64,000 nt of DNA, from assembly GCA_010015585.1 (NCBI GenBank), contig ML975150.1; one strand, given 5' to 3'. The DNA comes from Eremomyces bilateralis CBS 781.70 (Eukaryota). The notes under the pieces were generated by a model. That model was not told the origin of the DNA, did no database searches, and was given only the letters and a program-made list of their open reading frames with translations. The position numbers and the translations under genes were made by a program. Below, piece by piece: positions 4,693 through 56,400 of this stretch; positions within the stretch are counted from its first letter, which is position 1, and the number at the start of each line of letters is the position of its first letter.

Positions 4693-5780
4693 ATGAGGTC
4701 TTTTGGCACAAAAATAAGTGGTAATCGAGGGCTAATAAGGAGTTATCGGCCGCTCAAAGAGTTGGGATTTTTCAGGCTGCTGAAGATGGGAAACCAAAGA
4801 CTGAAATCGCGCGGAACTTTCGCGTCTCTCGAAGCGCGGTGTATGGGACTCTAGAGAGGTGGGAAGAACATCAAACCACCGTATCTTTACCCCGTGAAGG
4901 GTGTCCCCATAAGCTATCACGCCCTGACGAACGGCATATCGTCCAAATCACACGTCGATTTCCTAAAATGGAGTATGGAGAGCTCCTCGCAGGTATTTCA
5001 TACCTCCGCAATTCTAGGAAGACTATCTACCGAACCCTTAAGAAATATCACCTTACGAAATGGCGAGCGAAGAAGAGGCCTTACCTGAAGCCCCACCACG
5101 CAAAAGACCGCCTCCGATTTGCCCACGAATTCCTTGAATTCGACTTCTCCCGGACCCACTCCACGGACGAGTGCTCGTATGAGAAGGGGGCGGGCGGTAA
5201 GCAGGTATGGGTATGGCGACTGTACCACGAGGCATATGATCCGCAAATGGTAGAGCCTAAGACCTCTGGCAAGGCCATTTCACAGATGATATGGGGCTCA
5301 ATCTCGCGTGATGGGAGGTCAGGCCTGGTGATCATGGATCGCGACGAAACCTCCGCAAGACAGGGATATTCCGCGAAATCCTACATCGCTACGTTAGAGG
5401 AGGGACTTCTCCCTACGTACGAACCCGGGGATGTTGTTATCCAGGATAACGCAAGGATCCATACGGCTAAAATCACCCAAGAATGGCTGGAGACGCACGG
5501 CATTTGGGTCATCGATTGGCCGGCCAATTCNNNNNNNNNNNNNNNNNNNNNNNNNNNNNNNNNNNNNNNNNNNNNNNNNNNNNNNNNNNNNNNNNNNNNN
5601 NNNNNNNNNNNNNNNNNNNNNNNNNNNNNNNNNNNNNNNNNNNNNNNNNNNNNNNNNNNNNNNNNNNNNNNNNNNNNNNNNNNNNNNNNNNNNNNNNNNN
5701 NNNNNNNNNNNNNNNNNNNNNNNNNNNNNNNNNNNNNNNNGGCGGTAATCAAGGCAAAAGGGTGGCATACGAAATATTAG
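4693..5780 (+). pseudogene. Tc1-type DDE transposase, frameshifted near codon 13; partly covered by an assembly gap
   Basis: ATG 4693 (MRSFGTKISGNRG) is out of frame with NKELSAAQR...HTH...TDECSY...QDNARIH...WPAN...KGWHTKY*; in-frame TAA at 4722 upstream of the main frame. Confidence 0.85.
5531..5740. other. Assembly gap (210 N)
   Basis: Run of N. Confidence 1.
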
Positions 5781-11838: not shown

Positions 11839-12332
11839 CGGATCGCACTTGGAGAAGACGGATCACAAGATGGGATCTACGAGATATTCGGTCCTCCTTA
11901 TCACGCTGTCCACTTCCTCCGTTCTCTAGGTAATCCCAGATCTGTCTGCTGCTTCCCTCTGATGAGCTCAACAACGTGCAATGGCCTTTCAAAGCGATAT
12001 GAATGACTGAATGTTTTGATCCTGTGAAATGAAATCCAACATGAAGTTCCAGGGACTAGAGCTTCCGTCAAACACTTTAAGCGGAGCCATGAGGCTAAGC
12101 CCCTTTCGACTAGCGCTGTTCTGGTCACTCCTGGAGCCGCATCTCCAATTGCTATGGAACTCTCATAGAAGCATCAAACCAACACTCAACTAACACTTGG
12201 ACACTTCACACCACTCTGCCATCAGTGCAATCATTCTGTTGTAACAATCGAACCTCCAGATTCCTCTAAACTAGTCATCAACCTCTTGAACCCCATCCTC
12301 CCGCTTCTGGTCCAACGCTATTAAATTCCACC

Positions 12333-13186
12333 ATGGCTGACCGATTTCCCTCGCTAGAGGACCTCGATTCCGGTATGTCACACTCCCCAACCGACCCTGT
12401 CCCGTATACTGACTGCAGGACCAGCTCCGATCGGCGTTGCTCCCGCGGACTCGTCAGCGTCGAACTTCCTGGACCGCGAACGCGCCGCCCTCGGTGATGA
12501 TGCCGATCAGTTCGCATCTACAAACGACAACATCGCCACCGTCGAAGACGCCGGCGACGACGACCTCCTCGGCGGCGGCGACCACGCCTTTCCCACCGGC
12601 GTCGTCGCGGACGACATGTCTGGCTTCGAGAACAGCTTTCCTGCCATTGACACCACCAACGAGGTATGCTACCCCCAATACCGCCCTATGTTGTCCGCTG
12701 AAGGTCACTAACCGCCCGTCTCAGCACATGGCCCCTGGCGGCACAATCACCGGCACCACCGCCCCCTTCCTCCCCGGCGCCCCCGCCGTGAGCACTAGCA
12801 CCTTCACCGACGAGCCCGAGCCCGAGGTGATCCGCACGTGGCGCGAGACCCGCGACGCCCAAATCGCCAAACGCGACGCGATCTCCTCGGACCGCAAAGC
12901 CACGACCGTCCGCGACGCGCAGGTGTCGATCGACGAGTTCTACGAAAACTACAACACGAAGAAGGAGAAGGGCTTGGCGCAGACGCGGCGGGAGGCGGAG
13001 GAGTTCTTGGAGGGACGGGAGGATACGGCGGCGGGGGGGACGAGTTGGGAGCGGATTGCGAAGTTAGTGGATTTGAGTGGGAAGGGAACGGTAGGGGGAG
13101 CGGGGGGAAGTGGGAAGGAGAGGTTTCGGGAGTTGTTGGTAAGTTTGAGGAAGGATGAGAAGGCGCCGGGGGCGAGTGGGTATTAA
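12333..13186 (+). CDS. CLC1: Clathrin light chain
   Basis: MADRFPSLED...FLDRERAALGDDADQF...EPEVIRTWRE...GGTSWERIAKLVD...APGASGY*; two introns. Confidence 0.95.
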
Positions 13187-44090: not shown

Positions 44091-45290
44091 AAGCAGAGAA
44101 CAAATCCCTCCAGAATGAAATACGCAAGCTTCAGGAAACCATCATCGACCTTTCTGAGCAGAGAGGCCAGAAATCGAGCCTAACATCATCGTCACCGCCT
44201 TCGACTGGTGCTCGGTCATAGTCCTCGTTATTCACGGGACGATCATCTATATCGCCGAACAGCTCAGCGTCGTAGCAGAGAATCGCAAATCCAAGTTAGC
44301 TACCCGGAGTGAAATCGATCTATCTCATTGCTATGGCCCGGTCCCCACGGAGGCATCGAAGATCAAGGAGCGGATGACAACAGCCTTGCATGCATACCAG
44401 GTGACCAAGGATGTACAGCCCGTAGCGATTATCAAAACCAATAGGGACCTTCACCGCGTCCGTGTGGTAGCACGGAATGAGCAAGACGGAGAACCCATCC
44501 GTGGAAACCCCCAATGGCTCGATAGTCATTTCGAAGGCGGGCGATTACGAGGAGAGCAATAGTACCCGGTAAAGGCGGACAGGGTGGACAAGCTCAAAAT
44601 CATGAATAAAATGCGAACGGCCCTCAAGGACGGCTTGGAACAAGAACTCAGTAAAGAAAACCAAGTGACGATCATGAGAATCGCTACACTCGGGAAACCA
44701 GCAGCACATAAGCTTTACTGCTCCATCGTGGTGTATGTCAAATATAAAGAGGAGGCCGAACGGCTCATCAGCGAGAAAATCATGATTATCTTTGCCGAAG
44801 CCGGATTCACGATCCGATACGAATACAGACCGAGGGTTACGCGCTGTTTCAAATGTGTCAGGAGTATGGACACCAAGCATACCGGTGTCAGAAAGCTCAA
44901 TGATGCCTAAACTGCTCGCAGGAAGGCCACCCGATGTGTATTGCGGACAGCCCACGATGCGTCTCATGCCGGGGCCCCCACAGGGCAGACGACAGAGGAT
45001 GCCCGGTATACCGTGAACAGCTAAGACGGTTATACCCAACCCATAAGTAGGCAGTTCGCCGTGCTGCAGCTCAATATCCAAAGGAGAAAGGAAACATTCT
45101 GGAGCGTTCTTAATGACGGAAAACTGAAGGAGTTCAGCGCGATTATTATATCAGAACCAAGCGTCTTTCTAGACAGCTCGGGTCGAATCGGCTCATCTCC
45201 GATATAGCACCCGGAATGGTTTCCGATTCTTCCAACGAACCCTTTGCAGGAGTGGCCTTATATCAGGAGCATGATCTTGGTTGATCGAAG
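44090..45290 (+). mobile_element. Degenerate Tad1-like LINE fragment: ORF1 (gag) plus start of ORF2 APE endonuclease
   Basis: Coiled coil, GEQ*YPVKADRV, three CCHC knuckles (CFKCQEYGHQAYRC, CLNCSQEGHPMC, CVSCRGPHRADDRGC), then VLQLNIQR..ND..IISEP; stops and frameshifts; no RT domain seen. Confidence 0.9.
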
Positions 45291-46411: not shown

Positions 46412-47000
46412 ATGGAGAAAGTCAAGAAAGACGCGTCAAAATTCAGGCCAATCTTACAGGACCTGGACGCCAATCAGGTCTACCTCCTCCACGTTGACCG
46501 CCATCCGGTGCCACACAAAAAGATCATCTTCTTCACAGCGGTGCTCATCAATCTGACCGTCCTCGCACTGCTCATCGGACGTGTCGTCTACGTCTTCCCT
46601 CTGTACCGGGCCATTTTGCTTGGACGAGAGTGGGTACCGGACGCGCAATCGTCAACCACCTCCATCATCATTCGGCGGACCTTCTCCCTTCTCATCGACT
46701 CGCCGTTGATTCAATACGCCTGGCGATGGCCATACACCTTCTTCCTCGAACGATTGCATGGGCAATGGACCAACCCTGCAGCATGGCGCCTGGTTTCTGA
46801 CTTCCGCCTGTCGGAACTGGTTGTGCGCAAATCTCGAAACTGGGGTGCCAAAGACGTCAGAGCTTCTATTGATGAGAGCCCATTGTTCAAATCGCGGGTG
46901 TTCCCGTTTGCTTCGGATCGCTATTTGCGAGAGAAGACTGGATACTTGATGCAAGGGAAGGGTTAGGATCTGGATTACGCCACGATGATTTGGTCGACGC
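46412..47000 (+). pseudogene. Fungal membrane hypothetical protein, truncated
   Basis: YLLHVDRHP..KK.IF plus TM helix...KTGYLMQGKG*DLDY; TAG at 46964 where TGG (W) would fit; sequence diverges afterwards. Confidence 0.6.
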
Positions 47001-47706: not shown

Positions 47707-50309
47707 TCACTCCAGCCGTTTCCAGAGCAGACTGCCCATGGCCAGGACCGAAACGCTCGAAAACGACATCAACGTGCCCGCCGTTGAGCTGTCCATGGTC
47801 AGCGATTGGAACTGGCTGCATGGTTGCGAGAACTTACGGCGTAATGACAATGTCAAATGGATGTAGAAGCCCCGATGCCAGTGCGAGGGCCACCACGTTG
47901 TACGCCATGGAATACCACACGTTGAACTTCGCTTGGGCGGTGACCTTCTTCGAAATTGAAAGCAGCTTGGGCAGCGCGTTGAGATCCGGCGACACGATCA
48001 TGGCGTCCGCAGCACCGGCGTTACTCGCCCAGCTGGACGCCAACAACACCCCCGCATCGGCGGCGGCCTGTGCCAGCGTATCGTTGATGCCGTCGCCGAC
48101 CATGACCACTTTGTGCCCTTTGGATTGCAGGTCGCGGACGCTAGCTTCTTTTTGGTGGGGAGCGGATCGGGCACCGAGGATGGGAATGTCGAGTTCCTTG
48201 GACACCCGTTGGGCTTCCTCGTCGACGTCGCCGGTGAGCTGTAGTCAAGTCAGGGGTGATAATGCTGCGAGATGGAGAACATACAATCAACACATGATAT
48301 CCACGGTTCTTCATCTCGGCAATCACACTCAATGCTTCGTCGCGAACAGTGTCCTGCTTGGTCAGCTCAGCCATCCAAAGCTCGTCAACGACATACCTGC
48401 AGCGCCATGAATCCACCAAACTCCGAGTTGATGGCAAAGTAGACCGCCGTTGTCCGTTCCGATGATGGAATGTCCGCGTCCATCGCGATGCCATGCTCCT
48501 GCAAGAACGCCTCACTCCCAACATGCACATTAACCTCCTCCCCGTCGACCTCCATCCGACACTGAATCCCCGAACTCACGACGGACCCGTTGGCGGCCCT
48601 CCCGCTAAAAGTTCGCTCTTCCATGTTCAGCTGCAGCAGGGAATATTGGAAGACGGCCTTCGCGATGGGATGTCGCTGAGCATGAGGAGCCTCGGCCGCG
48701 GCGAGCATTCGATACACTTGGTGGTTGGTCCATCGACGGTTCGGTTGGAAGTAGACGGAGGAGACCCGCACTTCACCGGTTGTCAGGGTCCCGGTCTTGT
48801 CGAGGACCACATGGGTGATGCCCGCCAATGCCGCCATGGTTCGTGCGCCACGAGAGATGATGACGCCGTTTCGCCAGCCGGCGTCTAGGAGCGTTAGCGA
48901 CGAAATGGCTGTGAGGAAGTGCTTACCGATTCCGATCATGACGGCCGAGGGAACCGCCAAACCCAAACCACACGGGCATGCCGACGCAAGAATGGCCGCC
49001 GACCGCTCCATGGCGTAGACAATCTGGTCCATGGAGAGATCTAAGGGGTGGAGGAGGAGGGACGCCATCGGAAGGGCCGCGATGAAGAGGACCGTCTTGA
49101 CGAAGACGGACAAAAACCATCCGATCCCATCCTCGCTTTCAGTCTTGTAGTCGATAGCCGTGGTGATGCCATTCACCAGCGACATCAGGAATGAATCCGT
49201 CTGTTTCTTGTAGACGATGGCGGTCAGCGGGCTCGACAGGTTCCTGGTACCTGACAGCAAGAAATCGCCCGGCTTCTTCACGATCCGGGCGGACTCCCCG
49301 GTGACCGATGACTCGTCCAGCAGCGATTCTCCATCGATGATGTAACAGTCACACGCAACCAGCGACCCCGGGCGAATCCGAACTCGATCACCCTGTTGCA
49401 AAAGGACCGCCGGCACATATTCCTAGTCGATGTCAGCCAAGCCCTTACAAACACGAGACGACGAACCCGAGATTCTTCCAACCACACCAACGAATCCTCC
49501 GCCTGCAGTCGGAAGAGCGACGTCAACGACGACTGACTCCGTCGGCGAAGAATGACGTGCACCAGACGCCCACCAGTCACGACGACAGCCAGGAAACAGG
49601 TCGACGTGAACCGGGAGCTTCCACCCAGACCGAACAACTTCAAGATCAACAGGGCGAATCCTAACAGGAGCGAAAGACTGATCAAGGCGTCCATGCTCCC
49701 CAGACGCAGCCGACCACGAGGCCACGCGCTCTTATGAATCCAAGCGGCGTCCTTGAACAGCACCCATGCCGTCAACCCCAAGAGGAGGAGCGTGGCGAAC
49801 GACTGGACGCCGTCGTACTGTCGCGCCGACCATGCCATGGCTTCGACGGTCGCAACGACTGACGACACGAACAGCGACGACATGAACCTCCCGCGCAGCA
49901 TCCGCAGCTCCTCCGTCCGTTCCAGCAGCTGAATATGCTGCTCCGGTGTCCCCTGCCCGTCGAGCGTGTCGTATCCCAGCTCTTCAATCGTCTTGCGAAC
50001 GGCGGGCGCGGTGATTTGTTCCGAATCGCAGAAAATGGACGCGCGGCTCAACGGGTACGACACCGAACATCGCAGAATGCCCGGAGTCTTGTGCAATGAG
50101 CTTTCAATATCTTGCGCACACGACACGCAGGTCATGCCCTGGATGTGCACTTTTATGCTCGACGACGACTCCATCTCCTGGTCCTCCGACCCGTCGAAAT
50201 AACCCCGATCAAAGACATTGTATTTGATATCGAATACCTTGATATCCAGATCATCGCACAATTGAATGAACCGATTCATGGCATACGCCATGAAGACGCA
50301 GCAAGCCAT
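47707..50309 (-). CDS. P1B-1 heavy-metal (Cu+/Ag+) transporting P-type ATPase, single HMA domain
   Basis: GMTCVSC, TGES, ACPC, DKTGT, HP, LTGD, GDGIND, YN and MSFSS; five GT-AG introns join ORFs 49278-50309, 48385-49416 and 47834-48205 to ...WKRLE*. Confidence 0.92.
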
Positions 50310-50833
50310 GACGATGGAAGCGCCTCCGGCTGGTGGTCGGACTTCCTGGAACGATTAAGGCTGGGGCAACCATGTTGAAGGTGACGGCTAAATCACGACA
50401 AAATGTTGATAACCAGCACCATGTCATAAAATCCTACTCGACTGCTGATGAGACGACAAATTCACTGTCACCGGCTATCGGAATAGCGGGGCGCAGGTGC
50501 CCATCCGCACGCGCCCATTGGCATGCGCGCCCTGACGCGTGAGGGAAACCTTTTCCCCGCAGTGGAGCCGTGGTGGAAGTGGACCTGGAACATCGCCTTC
50601 ACGGACGGATGGAGTGAAAATACTCAAGTCCAACGCTGCGCGAGCCATCTTGAGACGGCTATGCAGTGCGGGGATGTCGATGGCGCGAGTCATCATGTTG
50701 AGATGGGTTCGTATTTAGGTGGAGCGGTCCACCGCTGTTGGGGACGTTGTTCCCATCGATCCAGAGAATGAGGTTCGTGCTAGGAACGTCACATCATCGA
50801 GACATCCTTTGATAGGAGCGTGCGAATTTGGAG

Positions 50834-53005
50834 ATGGCTATTATCACGGTAGATCATTGTCACCAATGTCGGGGAACAGCCACTGACATCCTCAGACCAC
50901 CACCACGGTGAAGAGCGAGAAGCAGCTCGGAGCGCGAGCCTTGACGGGCACCTTCGACTGGAAGGGTAAGGATATCTCCGGCTTCAACATCCCACGCACT
51001 CACATCCACAGATGTCCTCATCCCCCGCGATGCCGGCACCGGTGTGACCAAATGGTACTACCAGCGCCGCACCATCTACCAGTACGCCCTGGTGGCGGGC
51101 CTGGGTCTTCTGACCTTCTACAATTCGGAGAACCCTCGCATGCGCGCGGCGGCGCTCGGCGTCCTCTTCCCCGGCGCCGGTTTCATCGCTGTCGGAACGA
51201 TCTGGTCCGTCCTCGCCTTCATCGTGTCCACCGCGCTGCTCCCGCTCCTCCTCTTCGCGTGGTTCGCGTCCGGCGGCGTCAGTCTGCCGCTGGCTCTGTA
51301 CCTGGGAGACATCCTCCTCGCCGCCGCCATGGCTGGCAAGCCCGTGCTGGAGCTGGCGGCACCCCTCTGGGTGACCATCGTGGCGGTCGGCATCTCGGTC
51401 ATCACCTTCCGCACCCTGAACGCCAACAACGAGGCCCGCGAGCGAGGCAAGAAGCGGAACGAGTACCTGATCTCGACCGTCCAGGAGATTCAGCAGCAGG
51501 GTGTGTCTTCCCAGGCCGCTCCCGGGACTCGGGAGATGGACCTCGACACTCTGCGATTCCTGCAGTGGACGCTGGAGATGGGCCTTGCTCCTCGGGACGA
51601 CTGGTCCTACCATGATGTGATTGATCAGTTCCAGACCTCCGCCATCCGCTACCAGTTGTACGGTGGTGGCTGGGATCTGGCCCTCTATCAGTCCATCTAC
51701 GCCCCCAACTTCCACGGCTACCTGTCCCTGGCACAGCGGAACCTCATCGAGAAGTCCCTGACCAAGAAGGTCATGAACTTCTGGCAGTGGGAGAGCCTCT
51801 TCGTAAGCATCGCGCCGTAATCACCACGTCCACGCTAACAATCGCAGGGCAAGTTCAAGACCATGGACATCGACCCCATCCGCAAGGACAACATCGTGCG
51901 TCCCCTGAGATGATAAATGACCCGGCTAACCTCCTCGCAGATGGTGTCCGGATATATCCTTTTGTCGTGCGCTCTCTACCAAGCCAACACGGGCGACAAC
52001 CGCTACACCAAGCCCGGCAGCCTCGCGTTCGAGGTCACCCACAACGACGTCTACAAGTACGACATCCAGAGCGTCGCCGAGCTCGTCTTCTTCAACATGG
52101 ACCAGAACCCGTACACCCTATACCCCTGCGAGCCCAACTGGGTCTACGCCATCTGCAACCTCATCGGCGTTATCGGTCTCCAGGCCTCCGACCGCGTTCT
52201 CGGCAACAAGTTCGCCGATCGTATTCGGGAACGGTTCGAGTCGGCTCTCGAGCGCGAGTTCAGCAACGCCGACGGCACCATCCTCCCCATCCGCAGCGAG
52301 CTGACCGGCTTCACCATCCCCGGCCTCGCCGGCACCATCTCCGACGCCAGCGTGTGTATGCAGGGCTCGCCGTACATCCCCGCCATCGCTCACCGCAACT
52401 GGGCCTTCATCAAGCGTGAGAACCTCAAGTACAACAAGGACGGCAAGCTGGAGCTCGTCGGCCTCATCGGTGCGGACAAACTCGACCCCGGCAACTACAA
52501 GGAGGGTGTCGGAGCCATCCGCGCCAACCTTGCCGCCGTGGCCGCCGAGTTCGGTGACGCGCAGATCGCCCACGATCTAGTCAAGCAGGTCGATGAGGAG
52601 TACCATCCCGTCAAGGAGACCAAGAGCGGCTCCCGCAAGAACCAGGGTCTGTCCACCATCCTCCACGGTTCCACCCTCCGCGCTCGCATGTCCGGTTTCC
52701 AGGATTGGTCCAACCTCGTCGGCAAGGGTATTCCGGAGATCACCCGCAGCGGCCCTATCCTCGAGGAGGTTACGTTCCCCGACGTCCTAGTCGCCAAGGC
52801 GTACTCCGTGGACGGCGAGTCCGTCGACCTGGTCCTCTACGACGGCAAGGCCCCGGGTCGCTTCCAGCTCGGCTTCACGCAGCTCCGCCCCGGCGCCACG
52901 TACTCGCTGGGAAAGCAGACCGCGACCGCCGACGAGGAGGGCCACGCCAGCTTTGAGCTGGAGATCCGCGGCCGCACGGCCGTGAAGCTGGAGCCCGTCG
53001 CGTAA
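50834..53005 (+). CDS. Membrane-anchored linalool dehydratase/isomerase-family protein (~662 aa)
   Basis: Exons 50834-50848, 50896-50965, 51012-51802, 51848-51895, 51941-53005; N-terminal hydrophobic helices; DQFQTSAIRYQL, DPIRKDNIMVSGY..LYQANTGDNRY, CEPNWVYAICN. Confidence 0.85.
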
Positions 53006-53222: not shown

Positions 53223-54230
53223 TCAAACCCTAGCGTTCTTCACAAACTCCTTCCAAGTTGTAGGTTTATCCTCCAAAGCATCTAGGCTCTCCTGTAAGGA
53301 AATTCCGTCGAAGAGTCCTGGCTCCTCAATCAGCAAGTGGTTCTCTAGCATCTCCTGGGCCATCGAGTCCGGTAGGAAGCTCTTATACTGATCCGCGGTA
53401 ACTTGAGTGAACTGGATCTTCTTTCAGGTTACCTCTTCAAAGTCAGCGAGGATCTGTGTCACCGGATAGTAGTCGGTGGCTGCAAAGATCCGTTTGCCGT
53501 TGAATGCGTCTGGCTTCTTCAACGCGGGCTTCACAAATTTACCTAAGACGTGTCAGTGTTTCAGCTCTGCGGAAATGTATATAGGAATGCTCACCCATAT
53601 CCTGGACCGTTTCGACAAGGGGGAACTTTGCCTCCTTGCTGACTGGATATGCAAGGCTGTAGGAGCCGTCGTCGCGCTTCCGCAGCATCTGCAGGTAGTT
53701 GGACATGTAGTAACCTGCCACAACAAAAGTGGCTGGGATCCCCAAGGAGCGGATGTGTTCTTCGATTTCAGCCTTGCTGTCGAAGTGTTTCGCGTGTGAG
53801 AGTCGGCCGCTAGAGATTTGGGTCGCGTTCAGCAGAGATGAGAAAATGAGATGCTTGACTCCGACTTCTTTGGAAGCATCAGCGACGGTCTTCCCTTGGG
53901 CTTTCTCAACTTCAGGATCACCAGTCTCCCAGTAGTTAGTCACGAGAAAGGCGGTATCGGAACCCTTGATCGCAGAGATAATCGAGTCCTTGTGGTTCAT
54001 GTCCGCCTGTAACGAGATAACCACGGAGTTTTCCAACCTCGGGATTTTCGCCCATATTACCGTCACAATTTCAACGCCCTTTTTCGCCAGTGCCTGCGCC
54101 TTAGGCTTGGAAGCGTCGCGAGTCACGCCTCGAATGGAGTACTCTTTCGATAGTTGCATCGCCGAGGATCGCGTCGATCACTGAGCCTCCTTGGATGCCA
54201 GTGGCACCGAAGACCGTGAACTTTTGGCAT
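53223..54230 (-). pseudogene. NmrA/HSCARG-like NAD(P)-binding protein, disrupted
   Basis: VFGATGIQGGSVI, RGVTRD, FLVTNYWE, HFDSKAEIE; two frameshifts in the first ~25 codons and an in-frame TGA (EVT*KKI, ~53424). Confidence 0.85.
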
Positions 54231-54952
54231 CGTCGGAAAATTGGAGAGGTCAAACGCCTGGGATTTCTGGGATAGAATTTAATGTTGATCTCGGGATCGT
54301 GAGTGATGTGCAGTGGAAGGGAACGTCGACTCGTCGAGCACTTGATATAAGACCGCAGTGGAGAGGATGCCATTTCAAATCTGTGACGTCAATTCTTCAT
54401 TCAGCCGGCTCAGTCAGAAGAGCTTCTGTAGGAAGTAGTTCTAGCACGGAATACAACTATTCTTGGCCCTCGTCTTAATCGTTTGAGCAAACCTTTCCGC
54501 GTAGAATTCGTCCACATCTCCAAGTATAGCAAGCATAGGGTACCTCTGTGCTTATGGCCATATTCCATGCTTTAATCAGGTCTGTCGGGCCGTTTTCCTG
54601 TCCTTCTCGGCCAAAAAGTGAATCGATGAGTTGATGTTGCTACAGTCATGCCCGATATCGGCTAGGAATTCTTCCAACGCGGGAGGTTTCCAGATAGGCT
54701 GTTGATGAAATAGGGCTCTGGCAACAGACGGCAATGACAACTATGAAGAGGGAGGAGAAGAAGAAGTCATTTGAATTGGTGCGGGCGCTGGCAAGGATAC
54801 TGAAGTAGGTACAACAGTCGTGGCTGGTGTAGAAGTAGTCGGTATAAAGGGAGGTCGAGGGATTGATACATGCCACAGCAGCTTTTGCTTGGCTGGTAGG
54901 AGAACAAGAACCGTGATAACGACTAGGCTACAGATGGGTGCGTACCATTTCT

Positions 54953-55620
54953 TTAGTTCTTACTCCCGATAACAATGTCCTTTCCGCTGACCGGGTCTTC
55001 GGCATAGATTCGATGATAAACGAATTTCAGAGTGCTACGCGTCCTTCTCACGGCGTCGAGAAGTTCGATGGACAGGTCGTGAAATTCTTCAATTTCTTGA
55101 CGAAACTTGTAGTCGTCATATTGAAAATATCCTCCAACCATTGCTGCGGCGAACAACCGTCGTAATGGATGGGATTTCGGTAACTCTGCGGCGGAACGGA
55201 TGTGCTCGGACGTGAGGAATTTCGTGTTGGGTTCGGTCCTCGAGTTGGGTTCGGTCGTCGAGAATAAATCGTGATATTCGAACTGTTCAGAAGCGTTTTG
55301 ATACGATCTACCACTCGACCTTCCATCCCGGTGACGCTACAGTGGTCCGCAAGTCGGAGGAATTCGACCAGTGAACTGATGGCGTCCTGGGCCGGCAATG
55401 TCCCTAGGCTCACACGTCCCACATATAGCCATTGGAGAAGCATTTCGAAACTTCGAACGGACACCACGCCATCGATCTCGGCCAAGGTGGTCGACTGTTC
55501 GTGGGTCTCCCGAAAATCGCCGCCAAATGTGGCGGCGAAGTACGGTGACTGTTGGCAGATGAGTGCCTCCGTCACCAGGTACTCACGAGAAGATCCGATG
55601 CAAATCTTGACGCAGGCCTG
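54953..55620 (-). pseudogene. BTB/POZ-domain protein, frameshifted
   Basis: LICQQSPYFAATFGGDFRE..SFEMLLQWLY; C-terminal part continues in another frame (ORF 54953-55156). Confidence 0.75.
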
Positions 55621-55984
55621 AGTAGAGTGGAATCATCCTATCTCGATCAGCGACCGGTCATCGGAGAGTGGCGAAATGGCATACGATTTCGCGAAGACAG
55701 TGAAAGGCAAGCGATGGGCCTCCTCCGGACCTGAGCTCGACATATTGGAAGTTGGAAGTCTGAAAGGTGAGCTGGTCGTTCACTCTTGTACGGTCGTGAG
55801 TGTTTGTCACGGATCGAGATTTGGGCCTGGCTGATGGGTGCCTCTGGCACATTTGCAAGCCGGGGACGAGTTCCGCACGGCGGCCAGGCGCACCACGGTC
55901 TCCACTTGTCGAAATCCCGCAGGGGAAAAGAAGTCGTGGGGGAAGTCTGTTGGTTCCCTATTATTGGCCCATGGTGCCCCACGG

Positions 55985-56400
55985 GGTTTGCCCATGCGGC
56001 CACTGTTTGGGCTATTGTAGATTTCCCAGTGCCAGCCAAACCACTCAGCCAGAAGATGCGTTGTGAGGTTTCGCCATTGACCCAATTGTATATGGCGTGG
56101 AGGAGATCGGTACGGGTTCTGGGGAGACAGGTTGGTTCGTGCTCCCGCTTGCGTGTGCTAAACGGTGCGTCCGCAGCAATGGGTAGGATCTTCTGAAGTA
56201 AATCGTTGTGTTCTAATTATGCTTTCAGTTAATCTGTCATCATCGCAAGTTCTAATGCAGAATTACTCACTTGAAGTAGTCTCACTGGAGGCAAAAGTTA
56301 TACTTCCAAGGTTGATGCCAGCAAAGTTCTGGCCTCCATCGGTTCCGGAGTCCGGACGTGTTATGGATGGCAAGATGGTGGGGTAAAGGGCCGCTAGTCA
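55985..56400 (-). pseudogene. NACHT (HET-E-like NLR) N-terminal/P-loop fragment
   Basis: LPIAADAPFS..EHEPTCLPRTRTDLL..IYNW..RIFWLSGLAGTGKSTIAQTVA; similarity stops just after Walker A. Confidence 0.85.

What the first reader, a model, noticed from the sequence alone, without database searches (positions are those of the whole stretch)
47707..53005. Head-to-head Cu-ATPase / LDI module sharing a ~525-bp promoter and a foreign-looking composition
Seen: the starts at 50309 (-) and 50834 (+) diverge across a short spacer. Both genes look more GC-rich than the flanking relics, and the LDI gene uses almost only C/G-ending codons. Inference: a co-transferred and possibly co-regulated two-gene unit coupling metal efflux with terpenoid chemistry, for example defence against combined copper and terpene stress. 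I know of no described pairing like this.
Basis: partly seen in the sequence, partly recalled or inferred. Interest (0 to 1): 0.75.

Follow-up and report, generated by a model that had tools for sequence, protein, structure and literature searches.

The report
Conserved copper-pump and isomerase gene pair
Two fungal genes sit head to head, one for a copper-type ion pump and one for a membrane-anchored relative of a bacterial terpene-alcohol isomerase; they are native rather than foreign DNA, and the same two genes lie together in several other fungi, so they probably work together in a way not yet known.

Summary
A 792-aa P1B heavy-metal ATPase (47707-50309, minus strand, 6 exons) and a 662-aa Ldi/Lis-type protein (50834-53005, plus strand, 5 exons) diverge across 524 bp. 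The Ldi/Lis-type protein is identical to an annotated Eremomyces bilateralis protein.

The "foreign composition" reading fails:
- The extra GC sits only at third codon positions (GC3 0.73 and 0.88; other window genes 0.53-0.82).
- GC12 and intron GC are host-like, and codon choice tracks the host's high-GC3 genes (r 0.80-0.82).
- Both genes carry short fungal introns.
- In trees, neither gene nests within the sampled bacteria.
- None of 80 bacterial Lis-type loci has a P1B ATPase neighbour.

The pairing is real and recurrent. The ATPase belongs to a distinct short fungal clade with a conserved N-terminal MACC peptide. Of 19 clade sequences, 9 share a contig with an Ldi/Lis-type gene. These include adjacent locus tags in Saxophila tyrrhenica and contigs of only 6.5-13 kb.

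My reading is a vertically co-inherited, probably co-expressed two-gene membrane module. Its biochemical logic is unproven; the pump may guard the enzyme's catalytic thiols. I found no paper describing the pairing.

The parts
47707..50309 (-). P1B-type heavy-metal ATPase gene, 792 aa. Exons: 50309-49467, 49422-48927, 48884-48397, 48353-48285, 48238-47838, 47788-47707. Five GT..AG introns of 42-49 nt.
   Evidence: The model was built by hand. Pfam finds HMA, E1-E2_ATPase and Hydrolase. It aligns from residue 1 to 790 with clade members. It keeps 47 of 49 family-invariant columns.
50166..50309 (-). Clade-specific N-terminal Cys-rich extension (residues 1-48, beginning MACC).
   Evidence: Found in 24 of the 150 best 50%-identity representatives. 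Coordinates.
49968..50150 (-). Single HMA metal-binding domain, with its CxxC motif at 50118-50138.
   Evidence: Pfam PF00403, E 3.3e-12. Coordinates.
48970..48978 (-). CPC transport motif (CPCx6P) in the membrane.
   Evidence: The motif definition comes from PMC5924815.
48781..48801 (-). DKTGTLT phosphorylation motif.
47755..47905 (-). The last two membrane helices. They carry Nx6YN (47891-47905; the trailing Pro of the signature is Ala) and Px6MxxSS (47755-47769). The stretch spans intron 5.
50310..50833 (.). 524-bp divergent intergenic spacer, GC 0.555; presumed bidirectional promoter. It holds two Ace1/Cup2-like consensus matches (50324, 50355), one CCAAT (50517, minus strand) and one ACGCGT (50535).
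   Evidence: Promoter function is inferred, not shown.
50834..53005 (+). Ldi/Lis-type gene, 662 aa. Exons: 50834-50848, 50896-50965, 51012-51802, 51848-51895, 51941-53005. Four introns of 45-47 nt.
   Evidence: My model is identical to the annotated protein P0001 of Eremomyces bilateralis CBS 781.70. Pfam Ldi PF18566, E 8e-56.
51044..51331 (+). N-terminal membrane-helix region (residues 40-135).
   Evidence: AlphaFold2 helices 40-66, 70-78, 84-89, 92-115 and 119-135. It aligns with the membrane part of bacterial Lis-type proteins.
51542..52747 (+). (alpha/alpha)6-barrel catalytic domain (residues 206-577; spans introns 3 and 4). The conserved Cys pair C371/C380 lies at 52124-52159.
52757..52996 (+). 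C-terminal beta-sandwich domain (residues 581-660).
   Evidence: Secondary structure of the model.

Best explanation
This is a native, vertically inherited pair of fungal genes, transcribed divergently from a 524-bp spacer.

Gene 1 encodes a short, single-HMA P1B ATPase with the copper/silver-type transport residues. It belongs to a distinct, fast-evolving fungal clade marked by an N-terminal MACC peptide. By homology it pumps a thiophilic metal ion, most likely Cu(I), out of the cytosol.

Gene 2 encodes a Lis-type enzyme: membrane helices, then a cytosolic (alpha/alpha)6 barrel that keeps both catalytic cysteines of linalool dehydratase/isomerase, then a beta-sandwich. By homology it isomerises or (de)hydrates an allylic, terpenoid-like alcohol at the membrane.

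The pair has been kept together across deep divergence, so the two products very probably act in one process and are co-expressed from the shared spacer.

My preferred mechanism is inferred, not shown. The enzyme depends on reduced cysteines, and bacterial Lis needs a reductant. The pump would keep thiol-poisoning Cu(I) away from the enzyme in the same membrane. Alternatively, both genes answer one stress signal.

The high GC of the genes reflects host codon bias, not foreign origin.
For: Gene identity
- Pfam finds HMA, E1-E2_ATPase and Hydrolase in the ATPase, and Ldi (8e-56) in the second gene.
- The best solved relatives of the ATPase are the copper pumps CopA, HMA4 and LpCopA.
- The motifs GMTCxxC, TGES, CPCx6P, DKTGTLT, HP, GDGIND, Nx6YN and Px6MxxSS are all present, and 47 of 49 invariant columns are kept.
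- The LDI model is identical to P0001.
- It is 34% identical over 598 aa to the 644-aa ORF of Thauera linaloolentis 47Lol, the length published for Lis.
- The AlphaFold2 model has pLDDT 92, and its best PDB matches are Ldi chains (TM 0.70-0.77).
- Ldi Cys170/179 align with the invariant CEPx6CN motif.

Native origin
- There are 9 short GT..AG introns.
- GC12 is 0.51 for both genes, and their introns have GC 0.53.
- GC3 ranks 7th and 1st among 22 coding stretches.
- RSCU correlation with the host's high-GC3 genes is 0.80 and 0.82.
- The LDI's top codon equals the host's top codon for 15 of 18 amino acids.
- The 43 fungal Ldi/Lis-type rows form one clade against 15 bacterial rows, each with support 100.
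- The ATPase clade is monophyletic (support 100) and lies outside the 27-30 sampled bacterial rows.

Recurrence of the pair
- Saxophila tyrrhenica has adjacent locus tags LTR77_009986 and LTR77_009987 on a 472,007-bp contig.
- In total that is 9 of 19 clade sequences, or 7 of 13 clusters at 90% identity.
- All four paired LDIs placed on the tree fall in one 27-row subclade (support 99), and the ATPase and LDI groupings agree.

Family context: bacterial Lis-type genes sit among alcohol and aldehyde dehydrogenases, CoA ligases and enoyl-CoA hydratases.
Against: - No expression data exist, and no call shows promoter activity for the spacer.
- Outside the window I saw no DNA of any pair, so orientation and spacing elsewhere are unknown.
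- Seven of the couples rest on equal contig lengths, which is indirect evidence.
- Ten of 19 ATPase-clade sequences showed no LDI partner. Seven of these sit on contigs under 10 kb, but P0121 (1.95 Mb), P0246 (29 kb) and Macrophomina P0130 (99 kb) do not.
- No clade ATPase was listed for many named fungi that have close LDI relatives (Boeremia, Pleomassaria, Oleoguttula, Exophiala, Vermiconidia calcicola). The enzyme therefore does not need the pump. This absence is soft evidence, because the window's own ATPase was also missing from the protein database.
- The correlation of pairwise distances between the two families is only r 0.57, reached or exceeded by 59 of 720 permutations.
- Copper specificity is not shown. 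Relatives P0122 and P0129 pass only the general heavy-metal model TIGR01525 and fall below the cut-off of the copper model TIGR01511. The whole clade lacks the Pro of Nx6YNx4P.
- The His I recall as catalytic in Ldi is Tyr here.
- The two Ace1/Cup2-like sites lie within about 55 nt of the ATPase ATG. Two or more such sites arose in 15 of 300 shuffles.
Confidence: 0.6

Rival explanations
1. The pair would be a horizontally acquired, compositionally foreign two-gene island, co-transferred from one donor.
For: - The locus is GC-richer than its immediate flanks.
- The LDI has the highest GC3 of the window, 0.88.
- The Ldi/Lis family is mainly bacterial, and among eukaryotes I saw it only in ascomycete fungi.
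- Named fungal proteomes almost never list the ATPase clade.
Against: - There are nine fungal-type introns.
- The GC excess is confined to third codon positions. GC12 is 0.51, and the introns have GC 0.53, close to background.
- Codon choice follows the host's high-GC3 genes (r 0.80-0.82). The two genes differ from each other (r 0.56; C-ending versus G-ending preference), so they share no common foreign signature.
- The fungal Ldi/Lis clade is separate from the bacterial one.
- The ATPase clade is not nested in the sampled bacteria.
- None of the 80 bacterial Lis-type loci (1.36 Mb) has a P1B ATPase. The single hit was a weak 110-aa match.
Confidence: 0.05
2. The adjacency would be neutral. 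It would be a remnant of ancestral gene order with no functional link, and the shared spacer would be simply one of many divergent intergenic regions.
For: - Divergent neighbours with spacers of about 500 bp are common in compact fungal genomes (my own knowledge).
- Many LDI relatives have no listed ATPase partner.
- Co-divergence is not significant.
- No regulatory motif is convincing.
Against: - The linkage persists between lineages whose ATPases are only 35-53% identical and whose LDIs are 51-76% identical.
- It persists between different orders of Dothideomycetes, Eremomycetales and Mycosphaerellales.
- It recurs in 9 of 19 clade sequences, three of them on contigs of 6.5-13 kb.
Confidence: 0.2
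3. The pair would be functionally linked but not through copper or terpene chemistry. The ATPase might move another thiophilic ion or act as a sensor. The Ldi/Lis-type protein might act on a non-terpenoid substrate, or the two might be part of a larger gene cluster.
For: - The clade is very divergent, with a long stem and an end branch of 1.4.
- It lacks the Pro of the P1B-1 signature and scores below the copper-model cut-off.
- It carries an unexplained Cys-rich N-terminal peptide.
- No fungal Ldi/Lis-type protein came up as characterised in my searches.
- An NmrA-like reductase gene lies just downstream.
Against: - CPC, YN and MxxSS, the residues that define the Cu(I)/Ag(I) subgroup, are kept.
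- The best solved relatives are copper pumps.
- Both catalytic cysteines and the Ldi fold are kept.
- Bacterial relatives sit in alcohol-to-acyl-CoA catabolic contexts.
Confidence: 0.15

Closest known systems
Linalool isomerase Lis of Thauera linaloolentis 47Lol (PMC4791888; passages read)
   Same: The architecture matches: N-terminal membrane helices followed by a large soluble Ldi-like domain. The window protein is 34% identical over 598 aa to the 644-aa ORF of that genome. The CEPx6CN cysteine pair is invariant.
   Different: This protein is fungal and its gene is split by four introns. It sits in a separate fungal clade. Its activity is untested. It is paired with a P1B ATPase, which none of the 80 bacterial loci is.
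Linalool dehydratase/isomerase Ldi of Castellaniella defragrans (PDB 5g1u, 5hlr and others)
   Same: The Pfam family is the same. The profile match has E 1.3e-22. Ldi is the best fold match, with TM 0.70-0.77. The catalytic Cys170/179 are conserved.
   Different: Identity is only 18-19%. Ldi is a soluble protein of about 370-400 aa without a membrane anchor or a C-terminal beta-sandwich. The residue aligned with the His of Ldi's NIMykGH motif is Tyr here. Whether the Cys48-Cys101 cap disulfide is kept was not assessed.
Fungal P1B-1 copper ATPases Ccc2 and CrpA/Crp1 (PMC5924815, passages read; PMC10581124, abstract only)
   Same: The core is the same: HMA CxxC, TGE, CPCx6P, DKTGT, HP, GDGxND, YN and MxxSS.
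   Different: This ATPase has 792 aa and one HMA domain, against about 1100-1200 aa for the Ccc2-type hits. Identity to them is about 30%. It belongs to a separate clade on a long stem. It carries a clade-specific MACC N-terminal peptide, and the Pro of Nx6YNx4P is lost.
Bacterial and archaeal CopA (PDB 3j08/3j09, 3rfu)
   Same: CopA is the best solved sequence relative of the core (E 2e-22), and it is of similar size.
   Different: The window's clade is not nested among the sampled bacterial sequences, and the gene contains introns.
Conserved divergent metabolic gene pairs of fungi, such as the nitrate-assimilation pair niiA-niaD (recalled; no call)
   Same: Two genes of one process are transcribed head to head from a short shared spacer, and their adjacency is kept across species.
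   Different: Here the shared process is unknown, and co-regulation has not been shown.

Membership tests
P-type ATPase, P1B (heavy-metal) class | DKTGT phosphorylation site, TGE, GDGxND and the HP locus | tested here: met
   DKTGTLT, TGES, GDGIND and RHP are all present. Pfam finds E1-E2_ATPase (1e-32) and Hydrolase.
P-type ATPase, P1B (heavy-metal) class | CPCx6P in the membrane and an N-terminal HMA domain with CxxC | tested here: met
   CPCGLGLAVP is present. HMA PF00403 scores E 3.3e-12, with GMTCVSC.
P-type ATPase, P1B (heavy-metal) class | Curated NCBIfam model TIGR01525 reached above its cut-off | tested here: inconclusive
   Full-length clade relatives P0122 and P0129 pass (369 and 393 bits against a cut-off of 346). 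Only exon-sized pieces of the window protein could be scanned, and these score 191 and 102 bits.
P1B-1 subgroup (Cu+/Ag+ pumps) | Signature Nx6YNx4P in the last-but-one membrane helix (PMC5924815) | tested here: inconclusive
   Nx6YN is present, but the trailing Pro is Ala in the window protein and is absent in all 10 clade rows that cover it.
P1B-1 subgroup (Cu+/Ag+ pumps) | Signature Px6MxxSSx5S in the last membrane helix | tested here: inconclusive
   Px6MxxSS is present (PSTAGTLMSFSS). The final Ser position reads Met.
P1B-1 subgroup (Cu+/Ag+ pumps) | Curated copper model TIGR01511 reached above its cut-off | tested here: not met
   P0122 scores 320 bits and P0129 334 bits against a cut-off of 397. 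The model was built for bacteria and archaea.
P1B-1 subgroup (Cu+/Ag+ pumps) | Cu(I)/Ag(I)-dependent ATPase activity or transport | not testable with these tools
   This needs yeast complementation or vesicle transport assays.
Ldi/Lis family (Pfam PF18566) | Match to the family profile above the gathering score | tested here: met
   190.3 bits against a cut-off of 26.1 for exon 5, and 44.5 bits for the end of exon 3.
Ldi/Lis family (Pfam PF18566) | (alpha/alpha)6-barrel fold | tested here: met
   The model has pLDDT 92.2. The top PDB matches are Ldi chains, with TM 0.70-0.77 normalised by target length and E about 1e-10.
Ldi/Lis family (Pfam PF18566) | The two reduced catalytic cysteines (Cys170/179; PMC6600392 figure legend) | tested here: met
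   C371 and C380 of the window protein align with them. The column is invariant in 27 and in 43 aligned sequences.
Ldi/Lis family (Pfam PF18566) | Active-site His following the NIM motif (His129; residue role recalled from memory) | tested here: not met
   Ldi NIMykGH aligns with NIMVSGY in the window protein. Fungal and bacterial Lis-type rows have Tyr, Trp or Phe at this position.
Lis-type subfamily (membrane-anchored linalool isomerase) | N-terminal membrane helices plus a C-terminal Ldi-like domain, about 640 aa (PMC4791888) | tested here: met
   The protein has 662 aa. Helices lie between residues 40 and 135. It aligns end to end with bacterial proteins of about 639 aa and with the T. linaloolentis ORF.
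Lis-type subfamily (membrane-anchored linalool isomerase) | Geraniol/linalool isomerase activity that depends on a reductant | not testable with these tools
   This needs an enzyme assay.
Horizontally transferred genomic island | Codon usage outside the host distribution | tested here: not met
   GC3 is 0.73 and 0.88 against 0.53-0.82 for 20 host coding stretches. RSCU correlation with the host's high-GC3 genes is 0.80-0.82. Only genes of this window served as the host sample.
Horizontally transferred genomic island | The genes nest inside a donor clade in trees | tested here: not met
   These were quick tree searches on a limited sample.
Conserved fungal gene pair or mini-cluster | The same two families are adjacent in other, distantly related genomes | tested here: met
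   9 of 19 ATPase-clade sequences are co-located with an Ldi/Lis-type gene.
Conserved fungal gene pair or mini-cluster | Same head-to-head orientation elsewhere, and co-expression | not testable with these tools
   No fungal genome DNA or transcript data were within reach.

The most novel reading that the evidence does not exclude
The short MACC-type P1B ATPase would be a dedicated partner of a Lis-type enzyme. The two would form a two-protein membrane module, perhaps a physical complex, that couples export or sensing of a thiophilic metal with isomerisation of an allylic, terpenoid-like alcohol. For example, the pump could guard or switch the enzyme's catalytic thiols. That would be a kind of metal-metabolite coupling not described in fungi, kept in a set of Dothideomycete-like lineages.
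Probability: 0.2. Interest if true: 0.75.

Novelty: new variant of a known kind. Interest (0 to 1): 0.5.

Why it matters
Fungal copper handling is usually described with two pump types: Ccc2 and CrpA/Pca1. This locus points to a third, short clade with its own N-terminal Cys-rich peptide. Named proteomes almost never list it, and the window's own copy seems to be unannotated.

It also gives the uncharacterised fungal Ldi/Lis-type proteins their first genomic partner. A pair that stays together between proteins only 35-40% identical is a strong lead for a joint function. It supplies a concrete, cheap experiment: co-expression and mutant tests with Cu, Ag and geraniol or linalool.

As a control case, it shows that high GC3 next to GC-poor flanks is not evidence of foreign origin in this genome.

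Tried and rejected
- Complex prediction of the LDI protein with exon 1 of the ATPase (alignments A3 and A4). The tool did not fold the pair, under its rule on pairing eukaryote and possibly microbial chains. There is no result, and I made no retry.
- Copper-regulator sites in the spacer. There were two Ace1/Cup2-like matches against 0.38 expected, and 15 of 300 shuffles reached two. Both lie within about 55 nt of the ATPase ATG. No Mac1-type site was found. This is too weak to use.
- Short repeats in the spacer. Only 10-16 nt imperfect matches appeared, which I did not interpret.
- A search for Cys, His or Met columns specific to the paired LDIs. None was found. A Gly/Ser signature before the first catalytic Cys marks the Saxophila-like subgroup but is absent from the window protein.
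- Mirror-tree test on 6 lineages: r 0.57, reached by 59 of 720 permutations, so not significant.
- Bacterial origin of the pair. No real P1B neighbour appeared in any of the 80 loci.
- Literature. 'linalool dehydratase' with 'P-type ATPase' gave 0 papers. With 'copper' it gave 5 papers, none relevant judging by title and abstract. 'PF18566' gave 0, and six locus tags gave 0. One search was badly designed and returned only unrelated papers. Supplementary tables of fungal transcriptome papers were not searched.
- I first took the 341-473 aa LDI pieces on unnamed contigs for last exons. One search shows that most are N-terminal pieces, so I dropped that claim.

Full report
WHAT IS THERE

The window is an ordinary stretch of a filamentous-ascomycete chromosome. 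It carries housekeeping genes: clathrin light chain, a DEAD-box helicase, a subtilase, Rpb5, SHMT, Cns1 and oxoprolinase.

At the given place two genes diverge. On the minus strand I built a six-exon model from 50309 down to 47707. It has five GT..AG introns of 42-49 nt with CTGAC/CTAAC-like branch sites and encodes 792 aa. On the plus strand a five-exon model runs from 50834 to 53005, with four introns of 45-47 nt, and encodes 662 aa.

The plus-strand model is letter for letter the annotated 'hypothetical protein P152DRAFT_121713' of Eremomyces bilateralis CBS 781.70. That names the organism. The spacer, 50310-50833, is 524 bp.

No identical full-length ATPase came back from the protein database. 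That model therefore rests on three things: splice consensus, frame continuity, and an end-to-end alignment with relatives covering residues 1-790.

WHAT THE TWO PROTEINS ARE

The minus-strand protein has one HMA domain, an E1-E2 ATPase domain and a HAD hydrolase domain. Its best solved relatives are the copper pumps CopA, HMA4 and LpCopA.

It keeps GMTCxxC, TGES, CPCx6P, DKTGTLT, HP, GDGIND, Nx6YN and Px6MxxSS. It also keeps 47 of 49 columns that are invariant across 13 aligned ATPases. The signatures are as defined in PMC5924815 (passages read). The gene therefore looks functional and of the Cu(I)/Ag(I) kind.

Two reservations apply. The Pro of Nx6YNx4P is missing in the whole clade. Full-length relatives pass only the general heavy-metal model of NCBIfam, not the copper model.

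The plus-strand protein matches Pfam Ldi (8e-56). It is 34% identical over 598 aa to the 644-aa ORF of Thauera linaloolentis 47Lol. That is the length and architecture published for the membrane-anchored linalool isomerase Lis: four membrane helices, a cytosolic domain, and a need for a reductant (PMC4791888, passages read).

An AlphaFold2 model (pLDDT 92.2, pTM 0.91) shows three parts: N-terminal helices, an alpha/alpha barrel and a C-terminal beta-sandwich. Its best PDB matches are Ldi chains, with TM 0.70-0.77.

The two catalytic cysteines of Ldi are named in the figure legend of PMC6600392. They align with an invariant CEPx6CN motif. The His that I recall as catalytic in Ldi is Tyr here.

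IS THE COMPOSITION FOREIGN? NO

The locus is indeed GC-richer than its flanks, and the LDI gene has GC3 0.88. The excess, however, lies only in third codon positions.
- GC12 is 0.51 for both genes, against 0.45-0.61 for host genes.
- Their introns have GC 0.53, against 0.48-0.52 for non-coding background.
- Among 22 coding stretches the ATPase ranks 7th (GC3 0.73) and the LDI gene 1st. Rpb5 stands at 0.82, and the helicase, subtilase, clathrin light chain and SHMT at 0.77-0.78.
- The subtilase shows the same strong C-ending bias (C3 0.60, Nc 32.4) as the LDI gene (C3 0.57, Nc 32.8).
- RSCU of each gene correlates with the pooled high-GC3 host genes at 0.80-0.82, but only at 0.56 with the other gene.
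- The LDI gene's favourite codon is the host's favourite for 15 of 18 amino acids.

This is host-type codon bias. In such fungi that usually goes with high expression, which is my own knowledge and not a call result. The host sample is only this window.

WHERE DO THE GENES COME FROM?

In a tree of 58 Ldi/Lis-type proteins, the 43 fungal rows and the 15 bacterial rows are each one side of a branch (support 100).

In trees of 51 and 46 ATPases, the window protein falls in a clade of 13 (respectively 12) short proteins (support 100) on a long stem. That clade stands apart both from Ccc2-type fungal pumps and from the 27-30 bacterial or unnamed rows. With three groups this shows only that the clade is not nested among the sampled bacteria. 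It does not identify the clade's sister group.

A scan of one genome per bacterial and archaeal species found 347 Lis-type relatives. In the 80 best loci (1.36 Mb) there was no P1B ATPase, only one weak 110-aa match. So the pair is not a bacterial operon that moved into a fungus.

THE PAIRING IS RECURRENT

The ATPase's relatives of 34-40% identity are few and mostly unnamed. The named one, Saxophila tyrrhenica LTR77_009987, has the locus tag next to the Ldi/Lis-type protein LTR77_009986. Both are on a contig of 472,007 bp.

For the unnamed records I could compare only contig lengths. Seven further ATPase/LDI couples have identical lengths and the same source:

| Contig length (bp) | ATPase | LDI |
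|---|---|---|
| 79763 | P0126 | P0261 |
| 301706 | P0132 | P0264 |
| 355954 | P0123 | P0340 |
| 105132 | P0241 | P0338 |
| 9785 | P0243+P0244 | P0337 |
| 12889 | P0245 | P0343 |
| 6482 | P0127 | P0344 |

. On the three short contigs the genes must be close neighbours.

Counting the window, 9 of 19 clade sequences are co-located with an Ldi/Lis-type gene, or 7 of 13 clusters at 90% identity. The ten without a visible partner are:
- P0121, on a 1.95-Mb contig
- P0246, on 29 kb
- Macrophomina P0130, on 99 kb
- seven sequences on contigs under 10 kb

My view was limited to the best 120 rows of two searches and to the members of 20 LDI clusters, so 9 is a lower bound.

The paired LDIs that I placed on the tree (4 of 9) all lie in one 27-row subclade (support 99). 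Groupings agree between the two families. Correlation of pairwise identities over six lineages is r 0.57, which is not significant (59 of 720 permutations). The enzyme partner is much better conserved (51-76% identity) than the pump partner (35-53%).

The reverse does not hold. For many named fungi with close LDI relatives, and for Vermiconidia calcicola, no clade ATPase was listed. That absence is soft evidence, because the window's own ATPase was missing from the database too.

A whole-library search with exon 1 found 44 proteins at E up to 1e-30. Of the 150 best representatives, 24 carry the N-terminal MACC peptide that marks the clade. The clade is therefore real and moderately diverse.

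HOW IT MOST LIKELY WORKS

Shown: there are two intact, native genes; their families and motifs are as described; they lie head to head; and they are repeatedly co-located in other fungi.

Inferred:
- They are co-expressed from the 524-bp spacer.
- The pump exports Cu(I) or a similar thiophilic ion.
- The enzyme acts on an allylic, terpenoid-like alcohol at the cytosolic face of a membrane.
- The two act in one process.

Bacterial relatives sit among Zn-dependent alcohol dehydrogenases, aldehyde dehydrogenases, CoA ligases, enoyl-CoA hydratases and a biotin carboxylase. That fits alcohol-to-acyl-CoA catabolism of acyclic terpenes.

My preferred link is that a cysteine-dependent, reductant-requiring enzyme benefits from a pump that removes thiol-binding Cu(I) from its surroundings. 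This is a hypothesis only. A common stress regulon or a physical complex would fit equally well.

Rivals:
- Recent foreign origin, about 0.05.
- Neutral linkage, about 0.2.
- A real link through other chemistry or a larger cluster, about 0.15.

NOVELTY AND LIMITS

I found no paper on the pairing, on PF18566 in fungi, or on the locus tags. Supplementary files were not searched.

The component families are known. What appears new is the short MACC-type fungal ATPase clade and its recurrent linkage with a Lis-type gene.

No fungal genome DNA, transcript data or metagenome contigs were within reach. Orientation elsewhere, co-expression and activity therefore stay unchecked. The complex prediction was not run by the tool.

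Noticed in passing
L014:8028-8594, L044:8000-8686, L048:about 12039-12458, L069:271-660: A SCO1/SenC gene (copper-binding, thioredoxin fold) lies within 2.5 kb of the bacterial Lis-type gene in 3 of 80 loci, twice directly beside a Zn-dependent alcohol dehydrogenase. One further locus has it at about 9.5 kb. This is a second, independent hint of a copper or thiol link for this enzyme family.
   Followed up: partly
window 50166-50309 (-): The ATPase clade has a conserved N-terminal peptide before the HMA domain, MACC..A...MNR.I..C[ED].L[DN]...YN, with three conserved cysteines. Of the 150 best representatives, 24 carry it. Its function is unknown; it could bind metal or carry a lipid modification.
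   Followed up: partly
window 47707-50309 (-): No identical full-length protein for the ATPase was returned from the 5.8-billion-protein set, although the neighbouring LDI protein is there. The ATPase may be unannotated or mis-modelled in the public annotation. A 286-aa protein 90% identical to exon 1 exists in the representative library (P0355).
   Followed up: partly
window 46412-46963 (+): This is a real gene of the fungal DUF8369 family, and the Atlas holds the sequence letter for letter. It converges on the 3' end of the ATPase gene, so this flank is not a relic.
   Followed up: yes
window 55048-56216 (-): A BTB piece and a short NPHP3_N/NACHT P-loop piece lie in separate frames. Together they look like a broken NLR-type gene.
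   Followed up: no
window 53539-54388 (-): An NmrA-like NAD(P)-binding gene in two exons converges on the 3' end of the LDI gene. Whether it belongs to the unit could not be tested.
   Followed up: no
window 5531-5740: A run of 210 N, which is an assembly gap.
   Followed up: no
L001/L048 and L002/L003: Two Lis-type paralogues sit on the same bacterial contig, about 70 kb and about 20 kb apart.
   Followed up: no
L021:11879-14455 (-): In a Binataceae MAG, the gene next to the Lis-type gene fuses a UbiA prenyltransferase domain with an enolase-superfamily (MR_MLE) domain. Enolase-superfamily genes also flank the Lis-type gene in L024 and L029.
   Followed up: no
window 44563-44910 (+): An ORF with a Cys/His-rich stretch resembling a zinc knuckle. 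It may be a retroelement gag relic. It has no Pfam match.
   Followed up: no
pairs listed: Across the paired lineages the enzyme partner is far better conserved (51-76% identity) than the pump partner (35-53%). The window's ATPase has the longest end branch of its clade (1.4 changes per column).
   Followed up: partly
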